Source: Octopus vulgaris
Lineage: Eukaryota
Direction: 5' to 3'
Length of the DNA: 64,000 nt
Assembly: GCA_951406725.2 (NCBI GenBank)
Contig: OX597816.1
Coordinates: 68,634,001-68,698,000, forward strand
Under the pieces are notes generated by a model. That model was not told the origin of the DNA. It worked only from the letters and a program-made list of their open reading frames with translations, and ran no database searches. Positions 8,165-62,108 of the stretch are shown here, one piece after another (position 1 is the stretch's first letter; each line of letters opens with the position of its first letter). Position numbers and translations under genes: made by a program.

Positions 8165-9061
8165 CGAGGGTAATTCTAAAAGTAAGGTCTCCAAAGCACT
8201 AGGGACGCAGGGAAATTGTACGTGCAGCTATTAGCAACACTGGTGGGTTTGTTGTGCATGCGCCTGCCCCCTCCCCAGCACGCGCCTCGCTGCCACGCTC
8301 AGTCTTGGCTTGGCAGTCGTATCTGCTGGAGCTCCCGATTGACGCTACCAGCAAATGTGAAGTTCGCGCAGGTCTTCGGTTTTTGATTGCAAAAGGCATT
8401 AAACCGATTGAAATTCATCGCTAATTAACAGAAGTGTACGGCAAATCGTGCATGGTGTCAAAAACATCCGCTGGTGGTGTAGAGAGTTTGCAGCTTGTCG
8501 TACTGAAATTCATGATGAAGAAAGAAACGGGTGACCATCAATTTCCGACGAGACAGTCGCGAAGGATTGAGCAGATGCTGCATGAAAATCAACGCATCAT
8601 TCTGGATGATCTCCGCATTTTGGTTCCTGAGGTTTCCCGAAGCACCATTCATAGGTTTTTGCGCGAAAAGTTGCAATATCGTAAGGTGTGCACAAGATGG
8701 GTCCCACGAATGCTCACAGAAGACCATAAACGGCAACACACCTTATAGTCCAGACTTGTCACCCAGTGACTACCACCTGTTCCCTGAATGGAAAGAACAT
8801 TTGGCTGGAACGCGCTTCAGCAACGACAACGAGGTGAAATATGAAGTTCAACGCTTCCTCAACGACATGGCGGTGAGCTGGTATGAGAGAGGTACACAAA
8901 AACTGCCCCTGCACCTACAAAAATGCATCGACCGAAATAGCAATTATATAGACAAAAAAAGATGAACGTTCAGACTTTAAAATGATGTAAACATCATTGA
9001 CAATAAACGTATCTGTGATTTCTAAGTATTTTTGGAGACCTTAATTTTGGGAATACCTTCG
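8165..9061 (+). mobile_element. Internally deleted mariner transposon
   Basis: TIRs cgagggtaattctaaaagtaaggtctcc / ggagaccttaattttgggaataccttcg; TA at 8163-8164; remnants WVPRML and PYSPDLSPSDYHLF...KCIDRNSNYI. Confidence 0.9.
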
Positions 9062-11189: not shown

Positions 11190-11572
11190 ATTATTTTCTG
11201 CTCTAGGCACATAACCCGAAAGTTTTGGGAAAGGAAGCTAGTCGACTAGATCGAACCCAGTATGCGACTGGTACTTAATTGATCGAACCCAAAAGATAAA
11301 AGGCAAAGTGGACCTCGGCGGAATTTGAACTCAAAACATGAAAACAGACGAAACATCTATTTCTTTACTGCCCACAAGGGGCCACACACAGAGGGGACAA
11401 ACAAGGACAGACAAATGGATTAATTCGATTATATCGACGCCAGTACGTAACTGGTACTTATTTAATCAACCCCGAAAGGATGAAAGGCAAAGTCGACCTC
11501 AGCGGAATTTGTACTCAGAACGTACCGGCATTTCGTCCGGCGTGCTAGCATTTCTGCCAGTTCGCCACCATA
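11190..11572 (-). mobile_element. MetaSINE-like family B dimer
   Basis: Two Meta-domain units on the minus strand. Confidence 0.8.
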
Positions 11573-11854: not shown

Positions 11855-11885
11855 TCATCTTTGTATGTATAAAACATACATTTGT

Positions 11886-12186
11886 ATTTACGGAGATGTA
11901 CTTGCATAGCAAGTGATTTGATCTGAGATCGTGTGCTGAAACGAAAACAATTGCAGCGTGGAAGGTGTTTGTAAGCCATTTAAGAAACACAAAAAGCCTT
12001 TCGATTCACTTCAACATTTAAGTTTAATTTGTCAAAATATTTTCGTCGCTTTAAGACCGCGACCTGTTCACTGACACGGATTTTTGTCAGTGAACAGGTC
12101 GTGGTCTTAAAGCGACGAAAATATTTTGACAAATTAAACTTAAATGTTGAAGTGAATCGAACGGCTTTTTTGTGTTTCTTAAATGG
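11886..12186. mobile_element. Penelope-like terminal repeat forming a foldback with 100-bp arms, each arm carrying a hammerhead-like motif
   Basis: 11976-12076 is the near-perfect reverse complement of 12085-12186 (8-nt loop); a further copy lies at 26060-26250. Confidence 0.7.
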
Positions 12187-13254
12187 TTATACATTTGTAT
12201 ATATTATGTAAATCTCAGCGTCATTTGAGGACAATGAAATGAATTTCGATATTAAAAAATAAAGTTCATTACCTATGATCAAAATTATATGATATTGTAA
12301 ATAAGCGTTTTCACTGTACACTATCGTCATATAGAATAAAGGGAAGAAGGTTCACGTGACAGACCCTATATGTTAGCCAGTCTTTTCTCGTGTCATAGTT
12401 AACGGATTTATACAGAGGCGCAAATCTTAGTTTAGCATTCCCCCTTCGCTAATGCAGATGGCTTGTGAATATTGCTATTTTTTTCCAATCAAACTAGCTC
12501 CCCGTTGAGATTTCTATTGTAAAATATATTTTGGTAATCTGAAATGGGAATCAAATTCTTTGCTGTTGTTTTTAAATTAATCCCCCACAAGGAATTATAT
12601 CTTCTAGTTCCCAGGATAATCTTAGTTATTCTGAATTTTCAAATCATTATATTCCAAATGTGTAATTCTAACGTCTCTCTATCTATATATATATGTATAT
12701 TTGTAGCATACAGGAGTTTCCCTTGAGGTGTTTCCACTGAGTTGCTGATATAAACAATTGTTTCCACTGTAGGCACAGGGCCTGAAATTTTATAGGAGGA
12801 GTTATTCAATTATATAGACCCCCAGTTCTCTGCAGGTACTTATTGTACCGCAAAACATTTTATCTAGAGTGCTAATAATTCTGTCAGTTGCAGCTTTATT
12901 TCCTGATATGAAATAAAGAGTGTTATTTACTTCAACCATATTTCTGTATATACTGACCATCTCAAAATCTAACCAGGTAACGTAATTATGCTTCGTTGAC
13001 GAGGACAACAAGATGCAGTCATGCATTCTTTCCAACTGTATCCGTTACATAATCCACTCCTAATCGAGTTTATTTTCTAAAAATTTGGATTAGGAGATAT
13101 GAGCAGATATTGTTTGTATGGACATTTTGAACTTTGAATTTGCAAACTTATTCTCAATTAATCAAATTTTCTTTGGAGTTCATGGTTTAAAATATTTGAG
13201 AATGTACCGTATATATATATATATTGAGCCAGCAGAATGCTGTCATTGGTATTA

Positions 13255-15102: not shown

Positions 15103-15391
15103 AGTTCTATATTTAAGAGATGCAGAATGATGTACATTATTTACATTCGACGGATATTTATCCTCATCATGTTTGTTGTTAACACAACGTTTCGGCTGAT
15201 ATACCCTCCAGCCACCTTCAGGTATCTTGAGGAAATTTCGAACCTGGGTTCTCATTCCTAAGGTATTTTTCGATGTTATTATTAATATTATTATTATTAT
15301 TGTTATTGTTCAGGTCACTGCTTGGAATCGAACTTGGAATCATGGTGTTAGTAGCCTGCGCTCGTAACCACTACGCCATATGCCCGTGGGT
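15103..15391 (-). mobile_element. tRNA-headed SINE-like element carrying a hammerhead motif
   Basis: A-box TGGCGTAGTGG, B-box GTTCGATTCC, (TAA)n linker, hammerhead-like motif at 15181-15226; flanked by a 14/16 direct repeat (15087-15102 / 15392-15407). Confidence 0.7.
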
Positions 15392-26040: not shown

Positions 26041-26059
26041 GATGAAGGTCTGCAGCACG

Positions 26060-26250
26060 GAATTTTGTCAGGGAACAGTTCGCGGTCTCAAAGCGACGAA
26101 AATATTTTGACAAATTTAAATGTTGAAGTGAATCTAACGGATTTTGTGTGTTTCTTAAATGGTTTCTAAACACCTTCCACGCTGCAGTTGTTTTCGTTCC
26201 AGCACACGATCTCAGATCAGGTCACTTGCCAAGCAAGTACATCTCCGTAA
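26060..26250 (+). mobile_element. Second copy of the 11886-12076 Penelope-like repeat
   Basis: High similarity to the reverse complement of 11886-12076; hammerhead-like core mutated (GGGAACA). Confidence 0.7.
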
Positions 26251-37978: not shown

Positions 37979-38640
37979 AACAATAACACATATCGTAAGG
38001 TATCTCATCCAACGCTGTTACCACGCTGCCAATCGACTACCTAGCTTAGAGCTATACAATAAATATTGTTTTATAAAACGAGTTTAACATTGATTTATAG
38101 TTTATTTTTTCCCCGAGTATATAGAGACATTTTTGTAAACAAAGAAATGGAATTTTTCTTGTAGAAATATGTATTTTTTTTTATCATTGAAATATGTTTT
38201 CATATTTTATTTTACTTAAAATGAATAATTTTGGTAATATTTATATTTGTAGCTATTTTGAGTGATCAATATTTGCACAGCATGGCTATAATGATCCATA
38301 AAACCACATACGTCATCCAACATGAATAATACAACTTCAAATTTTTGTGCCGTCAGTCCTTACCTTCAATCGTTCGTAAATCTGCTCAGGGTTTGGGGAA
38401 TATCTTTTACAAACATTTCTCTTTACTATAGCCAGGAGGCCTGAAATTAGGGAAAAGGCTTGACGATTATATCCACCCCAGTGCTCAACTGTTACTTATT
38501 TTTATCGGCCTTAAGTCGATGTCGGCGGAATTTTAACTCAGAAATGGAGACAGAAGGAATGATACGAAGCCTTTTCTTCGGAGTGTTAACAATTTTACCC
38601 GCTCACCACCCTCTCTGGTAGAAAAGTATTAGACGTCTAT

Positions 38641-39056
38641 AAGGTGGCAAGCTAGCAGAAACGTTAGCACGCCGGGCGAAATGCGTAGCCGTATTTCGTC
38701 TGCCGTTACGCTCTGAGTTCAAATTCCGCCGAAGTTGACTGTGTCTTTCATCTTTCCGGGCTCGATTAAATAAGTACCAGTTACGCACTGGGGTCCTTAT
38801 AATCGACTTAATCCGTTTGTCTGTCCTTGTTTGTCTTCTCTGTGTGTAGCTCCTTGTGGGTAATAAAGAAAGAGGTCTTTCGTCTGCCGCTACGTTCTGA
38901 GTTCAATTTCCGCCGAAAAGGCTTTGCCTTTCATCCTTTCGGGGTCGATTAAATAAGTACCAGTTACGCACTGGGGTCGATGTAATCGACTTAATCCGTT
39001 TGTCTGTCCTTGTTTGTCCTCTCTGTGCTTAGCCCCTTGTGGGCAATAAAGAAATA
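38641..39056 (+). mobile_element. Family B SINE dimer with a 21-bp TSD
   Basis: agaaaagtattagacgtctat at 38620-38640 and 39057-39077. Confidence 0.9.
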
Positions 39057-41394: not shown

Positions 41395-41980
41395 GGTGAG
41401 TTGGCAGAAACGTTAGCATGCCGGGCGAAATGCGTAGCCGCATTTCGTCTGCCGTTACGTTCTGAGTTCAAATTCCGCCGAGGTCGACTTTGTCTTTCAT
41501 CCTTTCGGGGTCGATAAATTAAGTACCAGTTACGCACTGGGGTCGATATAATCGACTTAATCCGTTTGTCTATATTTGTTTGTCCCCTCTATGTTTAGCC
41601 CTTTGTGGGCAATAAAGAAATAAGAAACGTTAACACGCTAGGCAAAATGCTTAGCGGTATTTCATCCGTCTTTACGTTCTCAGCTCAAATGTCGCCCTGG
41701 TCGACTTTGCCCTTGAGTCTTTTAAGGCAGCGAGCTGGCAGAAACGTTAGCACGCCGGGCGAGATGTCCTTGTTTGTCCTCTCTGTGTTTAGCCCATGGT
41801 GGGTAGTAAAGAAATAGGTATTTCGCCTGTCTTTACCTTCTGAATTTCGGGGTCGATAAATTGAGTACCATTTGCGTACTGGGGTCGATAAATTGAGTAC
41901 CAGTTGCGTACTGGGTCGATCTAATCGACTGGCCCTTCGCCACCAAATTTCAGGCCTTGCGCCTATAGTAGAATGAATTA
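41395..41980 (+). mobile_element. Rearranged cluster of family B SINE units
   Basis: Multiple heads and Meta-domain pieces. Confidence 0.8.
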
Positions 41981-45689: not shown

Positions 45690-47760
45690 CAGGTTGTGCA
45701 AAAAGTAAACGACGTTTTCAACCATGAAGAATATTTGTACTGGATTATTGTACAGGTTTGAATATTTTAAAAACATTTTTTTCAAAAATTGTTTGATAAT
45801 ACACACATAGACTTGCCGAAACGCATCAATAAATTTGATATTTTTTCACCGTTGTTACAATCATCTGTGACTGAGTTGATCGTGAATTTTGTTAGTGTGA
45901 AAGGTTAGTCAAAGTTGTATTTGTTATTAATTGTGTCTTAAGACAATTGTTCTTGCTGCCTTACGACAGTTTTGCTAACGTTGCCCCCTCGTTTGTAGAG
46001 AGAAGTGCTGTTAAAACAGAGAGAATTAGCTATTCAGATTTATCGTCGTCTGAGGAGGCGCTGGTGAGATGTCTAGACGAAATAGATAGAGAGACGGAAA
46101 GCGGGAGTTTCGTAGAGGCGGTGAGACGGTAGTCTGAAGATGTGTGTTTGGAAGGAATTGAAAAATTCCAAGAAATGATGAACAGGGAGACGAACAATGT
46201 CAAAGTATCCCCTCCCAGGGAAACTACCGAAAGGACAGCTAAAAGGAAGGTCTTGTATAGAAAATAGAACGTAAGACTGCATCGGGTATAGGTGGCTACG
46301 AGAGCTGAAGTGGAAAGGGCTCAGCAGCCCATTTAGAAAGAGGTGGATCACCTAGCTAGAAGGAGACAGTTCGCAACGGTGGAAGTGCGTTTTGCGTTCA
46401 ACGCTGTGGCCAGGCAGCATGGCGTTGCTCAAGACGGAAGAGGTGGTCCTTCTACTCATTTATCTGGGAAGACGTGCTTTTCGGGTAAGGATAGATGAGA
46501 CCCTCCCGAGGTGGATGTTGCGATTATCTTTCGGGCTTGTAGTACTGCTGATGTCTTTGTGGTCGGTGGAGAACACTCCGCTCTTATGTGGTCTTTCTGG
46601 CCACATTATAACATCGGGGCTTCCTTCCCTCCACTAACTTTTAATATCACCTCCTCGCCCACTGTTATGGTGTCGACCATACTTTCAAGGTCCTCCGGGT
46701 CAGCCTGGATGATTATCCCCAGGGTCTGCTCTTGCCAATTCTTCGGCAAGTTACTTGGAGGACCTCTATATGAAGAGTTGAACAAGTAGAAGGAAAATGT
46801 CCTGTGAGTGGTCAGCTCGAAAATGGTTTAAACGATTTCGCAGTGGAGATCTGAGTCTTGAAGATCATTAGCGTAGTGGACGCCTATCTGCCATCGATGA
46901 CAGTCAGAGACTGTCATTGAGAAAGATCTGCGTAAACCCACTTGAGAAGTGGTAAAATAACTTCAAGTTAGCCAGAAAACTACCTGCAGCCATTTGAATG
47001 TGATTGGAAAATCAAAAAAGCTCAACAAATGTGTACCTCACGATTTGAATGAAAATTAGAAAATGCGAAGACATGAAATTTGCTCCTCACTTCTTTTTCG
47101 TAATCAGACCTTTCCATTTCTCGACCGTATTGTAACTTGCGATGGTAACTGGATTATGTACAATAATAAAAAAACGTTCTTCGCATTGGTTGAGCCAAAA
47201 TGAAGCACCGAAAACTTTTCCTAAACCCGAGATTTTCCAAAAGAAGGTTATGGTAACTGTGTGTGGGTGTTCTGTTGGACTCATCCAATATAACGTGTTA
47301 AAACCCATAAAAACCATTCCTGCAGAAACATATGGCCATACAATTGCCAAAATGAACGAAAAACTGTTACCCACCCCCGTACCAGACTGGTCGACAGAAG
47401 AGGGCCAGTCATTCCTCATGACAATGCTCGACCACATGTTTCACTACTGACGCTCAAGCAATTGAGGAAACTTGCCTACGAAGTTCTTCCTCACCCTGTT
47501 TATTTCCCAGACTTTTCTCCTCCCGACTATTATTTTTTCAAGCACTTTGAGAGTTTTCTACGAGAAAAGGAGTTAGAAAACCAAACCGATGCTGAAAGTG
47601 CGTTCAGAGAGATCATCAGCTACCGAATTCCGGATTTTTATGTTACCAGAATAAACAAACTTGTAACTCGTTGGCAAAAATGTTTTGATTGCAATGGTAT
47701 TTACTTTGATGAATAAAATTCCTCATTGTTGAAATATATTGTGATGAATTTCATAGCCGC
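45689..47760 (+). mobile_element. mariner DD34D transposon pseudogene, interrupted by a LINE ORF1 insertion
   Basis: TIR-like start tcaggttgtgcaaaaagtaa; WFKRFRSGDLSLED, IVTCDGNW, HDNARPH...YFPDFSPPDY (34-residue D-D spacing), RWQKCFDCNGIYFD at 46800-47716. Confidence 0.9.
45940..46790. mobile_element. LINE ORF1 (gag-like, CCHC knuckle) fragment with an internal inversion
   Basis: Plus strand EVDHLARRRQFATVEVRF...YLGRRAFRVRI; minus strand GRKPRCY.CGQKDHIRAEC at 46573-46620 (1-nt frameshift). Confidence 0.65.
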
Positions 47761-61029: not shown

Positions 61030-62108
61030 TAGACAAACACGTAGCAGAAGCTTATGGAATTTTCCAGGCTGTTTATAGATTAATTTTATGAAGCAAGTCT
61101 CTGTTTTACACTGGCAGACGTATAGTAAGAACCAGGAAGTTCATACTGATTCCCTTTTTCGACAGGAAGGGCATCAACTACCTCGGCTGGGCTTCATCTG
61201 CTTGGACTGTCAACGAAGAGTACTTTGCGGTGGAATTGAGGCCGATCAGGAAGTGATTTCATCGCAAAACAACAGAGCTCTACCACTCGAATCGGTGGCA
61301 CAGGCACCGTGACATTACACTAGTCTACAATACCTATTTCTTTACTACCCACAAGGAGCTAAACACAGAGAGGACAAACAAGGACAGACAAACGGATTAA
61401 GTCGATTATATCGACCCCAGTATGTAACTGGTACTTATTTTATCGACCCAGAAAGGATGAAAGGTAAAGTCGACTTCGGCGGAATTTGAACTCAGAACGT
61501 AGCGGCAGACGAAATACCTATTTCTTTACTAACCACAAAGGGCTAAACACAGAGGTGACAAACAAGGACAAACAAACGAATTAAGTCGATTATATCGACC
61601 CCAGTGCGTAACTGGTACTTATTTTATCGACCCAGAAAGGATGAAAGGTAAAGTCGACCTCGGCTGAATTTGAACTCAAAACGTAGCAGCAGACGAAATA
61701 CCGCTAAACATTTCGCCCGGCGTGCTAACGTTTCTGCCAGCTCGCCACTTTACTAGTCTACAATACCATCCAGGCAGCCAACCACTTGATACAGATGGGA
61801 TTCAAAACTGTCCTTCACCTTCGTTACTGCTGAGACCTTGACCTATATGGCTTTTGATTGCTGCCCAAGCTGAGAGAAATTCTCAGGATCTGTTGTCGTT
61901 CTGGAAACATTGAAAAAATGAAAGGTGGTGGCAAGGGTCCGGCAACCTTCTCTTTGGGAGATTTTCATGGGGCTTTAAAGAAGTTTTGTGGGACGCTACA
62001 AGTACTTTCAAATCAGTAGATCCTACTTTCAATGAAATTAGGGTATTGTACTTCTTTAATATTTTAATGGCACCCCTAAAAATGTCTCAACACTTCTGGA
62101 ATGCATCA
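61030..62108 (+). mobile_element. Highly decayed mariner remnant split by a family B SINE dimer (61335-61751)
   Basis: mariner-like coding remnants on both sides of the SINE; SINE TSD actagtctacaatacc at 61319-61334 and 61752-61767. Confidence 0.6.

What the first reader, a model, noticed from the sequence alone, without database searches (positions are those of the whole stretch)
11976..12186. 210-bp foldback whose two arms each encode a G3:C8 core-variant hammerhead
Seen: arms of about 100 bp with an 8-nt loop. Each arm reads tgtca-GTGAACA-g-gtcgc(or gtcgt)..gcgac-GAAA-ATAT-TT-tgaca, i.e. stem I, core, stem II, and palindromic stem III AATATT. Known: the canonical core CUGANGA needs a C3:G8 pair, and GUGAACA is the compensatory G3:C8 swap, which standard motif searches miss. 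Inverted terminal repeats also occur in Penelope insertions. A third copy (26063-26115) shows it is a family. Inference: a Penelope lineage using a covariant ribozyme core, here arranged so either strand yields a ribozyme or a long dsRNA hairpin (siRNA or ADAR substrate).
Basis: partly seen in the sequence, partly recalled or inferred. Interest (0 to 1): 0.75.

Follow-up and report, generated by a model that had tools for sequence, protein, structure and literature searches.

The report
Swapped-core hammerhead in Penelope foldback
This hairpin is a routine head-to-head insertion of the end-piece of a Penelope-type jumping gene with thousands of copies in this animal genome, and each arm carries a hammerhead self-cutting-RNA motif whose two paired core letters have traded places, a natural variant that likely still folds but has not been shown to cut.

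Summary
The foldback and both motifs are real. The unit is larger than reported: 11888-12188, flanked by a 12-bp target-site duplication. Both arms are the 5' end of the transcript of a Penelope-like retrotransposon (PLE): pseudo-LTR, hammerhead and the start of the RT/GIY-YIG ORF. Full-length parents were found (L129, L304). The 22-nt core pattern has 6,593 matches genome-wide. The foldback is ordinary: 42 of 79 sampled loci have an inverted arm, and 18 of 79 have a whole hammerhead in both arms. G3:C8 is real covariation: 8 of 8 motifs in this PLE clade keep a Watson-Crick 3:8 pair (4 C:G, 3 U:A, 1 G:C), and a sister family differs by four compensatory pairs. Activity is unproven: the site is UUU, and G3:G8 sublineages also spread. 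A 'either strand gives a ribozyme' device is unlikely here: there is no promoter, no same-strand partner, and read-through buries the motif in a -182 kcal/mol hairpin. Arm asymmetry (32 of 33 pairs) suggests twin priming. The scan noted this family before in this genome (e1-8670522, e1-8672697) and G3:C8 motifs in other genomes.

The parts
11876..11887 (+). Left target-site duplication (12 bp)
   Evidence: Identical to 12189-12200, and found only at these two places in the window. Direct repeats of 11-14 bp flank 11 of 42 other inverted loci.
11888..12076 (-). Long arm: element positions 20-209 of the 209-nt reference copy (L011), i.e. pLTR 3' part, hammerhead, ORF start and 'tail'
   Evidence: 97% identical to the reference; ends at the family's outer 3' end.
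11888..11979 (-). First ~30 codons of the PLE ORF (MAYKHLPRCNCFRFSTRSQIK...). The part from about 11888 to 11946 is the 'tail' between the two preferred 3' ends.
   Evidence: The same ATG opens the RT/GIY-YIG ORF in L196, L197 and L304.
12030..12076 (-). Left hammerhead motif, G3:C8 core (N3 12071, N8 12066, U17 12035), 5-bp stem I
12075..12076 (.). 2-nt microhomology at the head-to-head junction; 8-nt hairpin loop at 12077-12084
   Evidence: The arms overlap at these two bases.
12075..12188 (+). Short arm: element positions 10 to about 121, ending just after the ORF's ATG (12183-12185)
   Evidence: 98% identical to the reference.
12083..12133 (+). Right hammerhead motif: stem I 7 bp, G3 12090, C8 12095, extra G at 9.1 (12097), stem II 5 bp, GAAA 12117-12120, palindromic AATATT, U17 12126
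12189..12200 (+). Right target-site duplication (12 bp)
26051..26250 (+). Separate, older solo copy of the same family with a decayed core (GGGAACA) and a stem II mismatch
   Evidence: 89% identical to the reference; no descriptor hit.

Best explanation
The locus is one promoterless insertion of two head-to-head pieces of a Penelope-like retrotransposon's pseudo-LTR, each carrying a minimal type I hammerhead with a natural G3:C8 core that is likely a weak, dimer- or protein-assisted ribozyme in the parent element, and the foldback likely arose as a by-product of twin-primed integration. Shown: the parent is a pLTR-ORF-pLTR element with one RT + GIY-YIG ORF whose ATG lies 57 nt after the cleavage site; short copies start at one 5' point and end at two fixed points inside the ORF; inverted pairs nearly always use one end point on each arm. 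Inferred: the enzyme nicks both target strands about 12 bp apart in AT-rich DNA; each nick primes reverse transcription at a different internal site of an uncleaved, capped transcript; the two cDNAs run towards the cap and are joined by microhomology. Inferred: the 3:8 swap is tolerated because the pair is kept and the clade already has U17 rather than C17, so G3 is not trapped by a G3:C17 pair. Cleavage is probably not needed for each copying event. At this locus a read-through transcript would form a long hairpin, not an active ribozyme.
For: PARENT: L129 has the tail, then ORF pieces of 392 + 615 aa, then a 3' UTR and the G3:C8 motif. L304 has two G3:C8 pLTRs 4,261 bp apart around the ORF, and L305 has a 1,025-aa open frame. 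The ATG in the window's arms is the ORF start. The protein has 286 homologs at E<=1e-3 and matches the RT core of a Pfam-positive (RVT_1 + GIY-YIG) PLE at E=8e-9. FAMILY: 6,593 exact pattern matches, control 0. Of 122 arm ends, 44 fall at positions 143-154 and 65 at 201-209; (TA)n follows 65 of 111 ends; 42 of 79 loci have an inverted arm. Of the 33 pairs with both ends classifiable, 32 have one short and one long arm, 1 has two long, 0 have two short. Short arms start at position <=8 in 23 of 32; long-arm starts scatter from 2 to 151. 25 of 39 distinct short copies have a G just before the start, where the long copies have C or T, and position -2 has no consensus. No GAG|GT donor lies in 995 nt upstream. 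COVARIATION: the sister family (57% aa, L224) has C3:G8 at the same place, with double changes also at 2.3:1.3, 10.4:11.4 and 15.2:16.2. 6 of 10 metagenome relatives with 3' sequence have a motif (3 C:G, 3 U:A). U17 is present in 7 of 8. LITERATURE: min-HHR features, U3:A8, and opposite-strand pairs (PMC4209133); C3G/G8C partly rescues a PLE hammerhead, RT starts at two internal sites, both strands are nicked and extended, and uncleaved RNA is the main template (PMC11167929); G3-C8 works better without C17 (PMC3884650, 'data not shown'); inverted 5' copies and a one-sided tail are typical of PLEs (PMC8557442).
Against: No cleavage data. The triplet is UUU, which I recall as a slow NUH site (recalled, no call). 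The monomer's minimum-energy fold extends stem I with a G3.U17 wobble, and the co-fold of two copies did not give the active dimer fold. Within the family there is no covariation: 0 C3:G8 among the 100 of 358 non-C8 and the 100 of 182 non-G3 matches listed. G8 is 42 of those 100 non-C8 matches (about 150 copies, against about 16 for the same mutation class at position 3). These form several small clades (7 of 8 rows, support 0.90; 6 of 7 rows, support 0.84), so unpaired cores were copied too. The sister family has A9 changed to C and L268 has C9 as well, so core constraints are loose in this clade. 4 of 10 relatives show no motif. The descriptor was loosened after I had seen L271 and L273, and L224 was reached by 6 of 200 shuffles. 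Pfam gave 0 families for the two L129 ORF pieces. The window's short arm ends at about 121, not at the usual 143-154. The sequence before the 5' start also looks like a 3' splice site, so the cap reading is not unique.
Confidence: 0.75

Rival explanations
1. The motif is a hammerhead descendant that keeps the fold but no longer cuts at a useful rate; it is kept as a protein-binding or translation element just upstream of the ATG.
For: UUU site and a possible G3.U17 wobble. G3:G8 sublineages spread, and are enriched in older subfamilies (20 old: 7 young, against 23: 44 for C8, p=0.0006). C9 in the sister family. Most short copies contain the whole uncut motif from the 5' start. Hammerhead mutants do not change insertion in vitro (PMC11167929).
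Against: The 3:8 pair is a tertiary contact of the active conformation (PMC3884650), and it is kept in 8 of 8 motifs in three different letter combinations, which a dead fold would not need. The youngest, longest copies (L303-L305) all carry G3:C8.
Confidence: 0.3
2. The foldback forms by snap-back: the first cDNA folds on itself at a 2-nt microhomology and primes the second arm.
For: There is a 2-nt microhomology at the centre, and the left arm starts inside the sequence of the right arm.
Against: Snap-back does not explain why the two arms end at two different fixed sites in 32 of 33 pairs. Nor does it explain non-overlapping pairs such as L014 (1-153 and 148-205), L024 (1-146 and 153-209) and L166, which look like classic twin-priming products.
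Confidence: 0.15
3. One reading: the foldback is a selected device giving a ribozyme from either strand, or a regulatory dsRNA for siRNA or ADAR.
For: Both arms do hold a whole motif, and a read-through RNA would form a very stable hairpin, so passive editing or siRNA production is possible if the site is transcribed.
Against: 18 of 79 random loci have the same two-motif layout. Both arms start downstream of the family's 5' start and lack the upstream pLTR. There is one sense motif per strand, so no dimer partner in cis. No host exon was evident nearby (ORFs of 120 aa or more only).
Confidence: 0.07
4. The element is a MITE or other DNA transposon and the hammerhead likeness is chance.
For: The short reference copy has a 6-bp terminal inverted match.
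Against: The element continues into an RT/GIY-YIG ORF on both sides in long copies. It has 11-14-bp TSDs and two staggered 3' ends. Homologous motifs covary across the clade.
Confidence: 0.01

Closest known systems
Minimal type I hammerheads (min-HHR) in the pLTRs of metazoan Penelope-like elements (Cervera and de la Pena 2014, PMC4209133; read: main text parts 1-2 of 4 and a term search of supplement 2; supplement 1 not searchable, figures not held)
   Same: Position in the pLTR, extra nucleotide between 9 and 10.1, G10.1:C11.1, palindromic 15.2-16.2 / loop 3, thousands of solo copies, and pairs on opposite strands close together.
   Different: The core pair is G3:C8. The only natural swap named in the text I saw is U3:A8 (Schistosoma Cercyon).
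Natural U3:A8 hammerhead core variants (Perreault et al. 2011, PMC3088659; passages read)
   Same: Compensatory change of the 3:8 tertiary pair.
   Different: G:C instead of U:A. 'C3G', 'G8C' and 'C3-G8' do not occur in that main text.
PAc (Poseidon, Anolis) PLE and its engineered C3G/G8C hammerhead (Frangieh et al. 2024, PMC11167929; parts 1-2 of 4 read)
   Same: Hammerhead near the ORF start, two internal RT start sites that define the tail, AT-rich targets, uncleaved template; the double swap partly restores cleavage.
   Different: There the swap is an engineered mutant, here it is the family's natural state. Here the ATG lies 57 nt after the cut site and the tail is about 57 nt. PAc showed no strand difference in start site in vitro, whereas these genomic pairs use different sites on the two arms.
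EN+ PLEs with a CX2-5CxxC linker (Neptune / Nematis) and their tandem or inverted insertions (Craig et al. 2021, PMC8557442; passages read)
   Same: C-terminal GIY-YIG, linker motif (CQSNCAVC), (TA)n bias, inverted 5' copy, one-sided tail.
   Different: The parent has about 70 extra residues between RT motifs A and B relative to a 781-aa PLE of the same genome. The clade was not placed by phylogeny.
Non-LTR retrozymes (Li, Clavereau and Pollet 2026, bioRxiv 10.64898/2026.07.22.740005; part 1 of 5 read)
   Same: PLE pLTR-derived short units with a type I hammerhead. A 9-copy 172-bp array of this family exists at G000:C22 (L005).
   Different: This locus is an inverted pair, not a tandem array.

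Membership tests
EN+ Penelope-like element | Single ORF with RT followed by a C-terminal GIY-YIG endonuclease | tested here: met
   L129, L304 and L305 ORFs with YVDD and a GIY-YIG-like C-terminus; RT-core match to a Pfam-positive PLE at E=8e-9. Pfam itself gave 0 hits on the L129 pieces.
EN+ Penelope-like element | Direct pseudo-LTRs with a hammerhead flanking the ORF | tested here: met
   L304: two copies 4,261 bp apart.
EN+ Penelope-like element | Optional 3' tail and inverted 5'-truncated copy | tested here: met
   Two end classes, 44 and 65 of 122 arm ends; 42 of 79 loci inverted.
EN+ Penelope-like element | AT-rich / microsatellite targets, TSD where visible | tested here: met
   (TA)n after 65 of 111 ends; 11-14-bp direct repeats at 11 of 42 inverted loci; 12 bp here.
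Neptune / Nematis clades | CX2-5CxxC linker before the endonuclease | tested here: met
   CQSNCAVC in L129; definition from PMC8557442.
Neptune / Nematis clades | Placement in the RT phylogeny with reference elements | not tested
Canonical hammerhead ribozyme | Core CUGANGA with C3:G8 | tested here: not met
   GUGAACA in both arms. G3 in all but 182 and C8 in all but 358 of about 6,593 matches (the patterns differ slightly).
PLE min-HHR (type I) | Watson-Crick pair between positions 3 and 8 | tested here: met
   G:C here; C:G or U:A in 7 relatives.
PLE min-HHR (type I) | Nucleotide 9.1, G10.1:C11.1, GAAA, palindromic stem III, H17, stems I and II | tested here: met
   All present; compensatory changes against L224.
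PLE min-HHR (type I) | Site-specific self-cleavage, as a dimer or protein-assisted | not testable with these tools
   Needs an assay; no raw RNA reads were available.
Non-LTR retrozyme | Tandem head-to-tail units, each with a hammerhead | tested here: not met
   Head-to-head pair at this locus; a tandem array exists elsewhere.
MITE / TIR DNA transposon | Fixed TIRs at both ends, short TSD, no RT parent | tested here: not met
   Staggered ends, 12-bp TSD and an RT parent.

The most novel reading that the evidence does not exclude
A whole PLE clade treats the hammerhead's 3:8 tertiary pair as freely exchangeable (C:G, U:A and G:C all in use) on a U17 background, and this G3:C8 lineage is an active natural ribozyme that standard searches miss. 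Its thousands of foldback insertions record that the two internal RT start sites are used on opposite target strands in one event. That would explain the long-unexplained inverted, one-tailed structure of Penelope insertions as twin priming.
Probability: 0.35. Interest if true: 0.65.

Novelty: new variant of a known kind. Interest (0 to 1): 0.42.

Why it matters
A natural G3:C8 hammerhead would complete the set of natural swaps at the 3:8 pair, which I found in print only as an engineered partial-rescue mutant. It means CUGANGA-based searches undercount ribozymes by thousands of copies in one genome. The three core types in related elements give a ready test of whether PLE hammerheads are kept for cleavage at all, which is an open question. 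The arm asymmetry gives a testable model for how PLE inverted insertions form. The individual foldback itself is ordinary.

Tried and rejected
Rfam scan: no hammerhead in the 150 of 170 rows shown.

Apparent 3' extension shared by the third copy: only 4 genome matches, no shared downstream sequence, not the ORF.

L002 upstream frames: no Pfam hit; dropped. The GIY-YIG upstream of L059 belongs to another PLE family, joined at a breakpoint. The Pfam GIY-YIG genome search found other PLE families, not the parent: 0 of 30 loci held the motif, and 1 of 30 held a partial arm. The PDB sequence search gave nothing useful (best E 0.92).

Expression: no RNA holder listed. The one run guessed to be RNA covered only the repeat, not the unique flank. 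A second lay on the right flank gave no records, so the empty site, editing, siRNA and cleavage ends were not tested. Contigs of three runs of unknown type show both 3' end points and many inverted joints, but one may be the source sample, so I do not count them as independent support.

Thermodynamic co-folding did not produce the active dimer; such models ignore tertiary contacts. Within-family covariation at 3:8 was not found. 'U17 co-evolved with G3' was rejected, since U17 is clade-wide. 'G3:G8 is the ancestral intermediate' is not established: G8 copies are enriched in older subfamilies, but two more divergent copies (L205/L310, L213) have C8 and the tree is unrooted.

Papers not held: Lunse et al. 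2017, Przybilski and Hammann 2007, Nelson and Uhlenbeck 2008. The findings search by sequence returned nothing.

Full report
OBSERVATION. The sequence at 11976-12186 is a foldback with arms 97% identical over 102 bp and an 8-nt loop; it folds at -161 kcal/mol. On the right arm G3 is at 12090, C8 at 12095, G12 at 12117 and U17 at 12126; on the left arm N3 is at 12071 and U17 at 12035. The two arms are the best-scoring motifs on either strand of the window (23 and 21, next 18). Rfam showed no hammerhead in the 150 of 170 rows listed. The true unit is 11888-12188, bounded by a 12-bp direct repeat found only at 11876-11887 and 12189-12200. The third copy (26051-26250, 89% identical) has a decayed core.

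FAMILY. The host is a 2.8-Gb animal genome (G000), probably an octopus: a related protein carries that source label and matches G000 at 100%. A 22-nt pattern with free letters at core positions 3, 7 and 8 has 6,593 exact matches, control 0. I sampled in position order from the 100 listed matches: 90 stretches fetched, 3 dropped as the same locus twice and 8 as apparent duplicates of one locus, leaving 79. Before the last 7 were dropped, 49 of 86 had an inverted arm. Of the 79, 42 have a head-to-head inverted arm and 18 have a whole motif in both arms. Of 122 arm ends, 44 fall at element positions 143-154, 65 at 201-209 and 13 elsewhere. (TA)n follows 65 of 111 ends. Direct repeats of 11-14 bp flank 11 of 42 inverted loci. 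Mean identity to the reference copy is 92%. The sample was chosen by part of the core, so it cannot test core conservation.

PARENT. Some copies extend upstream. Following that sequence led to a 3' UTR and an ORF with RT and GIY-YIG-like motifs. L129 has tail, ORF pieces of 392 and 615 aa, UTR and the G3:C8 motif. In L196, L197 and L304 the ATG inside the window's arms opens that ORF, 57 nt after U17. L304 has two G3:C8 pLTRs 4,261 bp apart, and L305 has a 1,025-aa open frame cut at its 5' end by an inversion. None of the 9 stretches or the 8 family stretches held a fully intact ORF from the ATG. Pfam gave no hit on the L129 pieces, but hit RVT_1 and GIY-YIG on another PLE of the genome, whose RT core aligns with L129 at E=8e-9. 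The L129 piece has 286 homologs. So the window's arms are the 5' end of the PLE transcript plus the first codons, the architecture described for the anole PLE, where RT starts at two internal sites that define the tail (PMC11167929).

IS G3:C8 REAL COVARIATION? Inside the family, no. Non-G at 3 occurs in 182 matches and non-C at 8 in 358, and none of the 100 listed from each is C3:G8. Across families, yes. The sister family (57% aa identity, intact 1,312-aa frames) has C3:G8 at the same place before a homologous N-terminus, with double-sided changes also at 2.3:1.3, 10.4:11.4 and 15.2:16.2; its position 9 is C. Of 15 metagenome relatives, 10 had 3' sequence to scan and 6 of these have a motif: three C:G and three U:A. 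The other 5 gave no hit when scanned whole. Shuffles reached the observed score in 0 of 200 (L268, L270, L273, L274, L197), 1 of 200 (L271, L276) and 6 of 200 (L224). With any letters allowed at 3 and 8, all 8 best motifs pair them; the permutation p is 0.004, or 0.007 with the related L270 and L271 merged. I loosened the descriptor after seeing L271 and L273. U17 is present in 7 of 8. A distant 781-aa PLE family of the same genome has U3:A8.

DOES IT CUT? Not shown. For: the 3:8 pair belongs to the active conformation (PMC3884650); the double swap partly rescues activity in general (PMC8495972) and in a PLE hammerhead (PMC11167929); G3-C8 is reported to work better without C17 (PMC3884650, data not shown). 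Against: the site is UUU; a G3.U17 wobble extends stem I in the predicted monomer; and G8 makes up 42 of the 100 listed non-C8 matches, about 150 copies against about 16 for G3-to-C. The G8 copies fall into several small clades and are enriched in older subfamilies (p=0.0006). Unpaired cores were therefore copied, in line with cleavage not being needed for insertion in vitro. I put weak real activity in the parent at roughly 0.55.

HOW THE FOLDBACK FORMS (inferred). In 32 of the 33 pairs with both ends classifiable, one arm ends at the inner site and the other at the outer site; 9 further pairs have one irregular end, as the window's does. Inner-site arms reach position <=8 in 23 of 32, while outer-site arms start anywhere from 2 to 151. 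Some pairs do not overlap at all (L014, L024, L166). This fits two target nicks priming at the two internal sites, followed by a microhomology join (2 nt here). 25 of 39 distinct short copies have a G just before the common start, where long copies have C or T. I read this as the copied cap of an uncleaved transcript. The same stretch resembles a 3' splice site, but no matching donor lies in 995 nt upstream. The pattern of inverted copy and one-sided tail is already described for PLEs, with the mechanism left open (PMC8557442). One search for Penelope + twin priming + inverted + tail returned a single unrelated review, seen as a listing only.

Both arms lack the upstream pLTR, each strand has one sense motif, and the whole insertion folds at -182 (+) or -172 (-) kcal/mol, against -11 for the hammerhead fold alone. 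Read-through would give dsRNA, not a free ribozyme. Passive editing or siRNA is possible but untested; no ORF of 120 aa or more marks a host exon nearby.

NOVELTY. Min-HHRs in PLE pLTRs, opposite-strand pairs and U3:A8 are in print (PMC4209133; PMC3088659). A natural G3:C8 was not found in searches, nor in the passages read. However, Lunse et al. 2017 (PLE hammerhead variants), Przybilski and Hammann 2007 and Nelson and Uhlenbeck 2008 were not held, figures are not held, Cervera's supplement 1 could not be searched, and Perreault's supplements were not opened; any of these could contain it. An octopus repeat paper has no mention of hammerheads or ribozymes (PMC13282606, term search). The scan's earlier notes describe the same family elsewhere in this genome and G3:C8 motifs in other genomes. 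I recorded my reading before seeing them and do not count them as evidence.

VERDICT. A real feature and a new variant of a known kind. The foldback is ordinary PLE biology. The swapped core is well supported as covariation and unproven as a catalyst. Interest 0.42.

Noticed in passing
window 15178-15229 (-): A second, unrelated hammerhead-like motif with C3:G8 but G at position 9, a palindromic stem III and U17 (score 18); probably another PLE family's pLTR.
   Followed up: no
L224:4638-4687 and L224:193 onwards (also L219-L248): Young sister PLE family with intact 1,312-aa frames and an Asn-rich insert. Its hammerhead has C3:G8 but C9, and its copies end at two sites in the ORF start that match those of this family.
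   Followed up: partly
L069, L071, L073, L075, L076, L083, L094 (3' UTR); ORF in L133:3245-5587: An abundant 781-aa RT + GIY-YIG PLE family with a U3:A8 hammerhead core and an upstream separate ORF.
   Followed up: partly
L273:4965-5017: Metagenome relative whose hammerhead has U15.1:A16.1 instead of A15.1:U16.1, with a palindromic stem III.
   Followed up: no
L129:1869-3713 (-), residues about 75-169: About 70 extra residues between RT motifs A and B compared with the 781-aa PLE; sister and homologous proteins have a similar stretch. It resembles an insertion-in-fingers domain, which PMC8557442 describes as absent from canonical C-terminal-EN PLEs.
   Followed up: no
L005 (G000:C22:15527938-15531046): Nine-copy tandem array of about 172-bp units of this family, each with a G3:C8 motif; retrozyme-like, and able to supply dimer partners in cis.
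   Followed up: no
L031, L064, L202, L208, L252, L253, L260, L261, L264, L283-L302: G3:G8 sublineages, about 150 copies, enriched in older subfamilies.
   Followed up: partly
L310:1182-1328 (-): Divergent (83%) family copy with a longer stem I that has a double change relative to the main family, and C at core position 4.
   Followed up: no
window 8519-8965 (+) and 47294-47716 (+): Frames that look like Tc1/mariner transposase remnants (motif recalled, not tested).
   Followed up: no
window, e.g. 11315-11530, 38640-38917, 41395-41622, 61475-61752: A 200-300-bp SINE-like family with more than a dozen copies in both orientations, a far larger potential source of dsRNA than the foldback.
   Followed up: no
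L132 (reverse of the oriented stretch, 1,343-aa frame): Long open pol-like frame of an LTR-retrotransposon type next to a PLE copy (type recalled, not tested).
   Followed up: no
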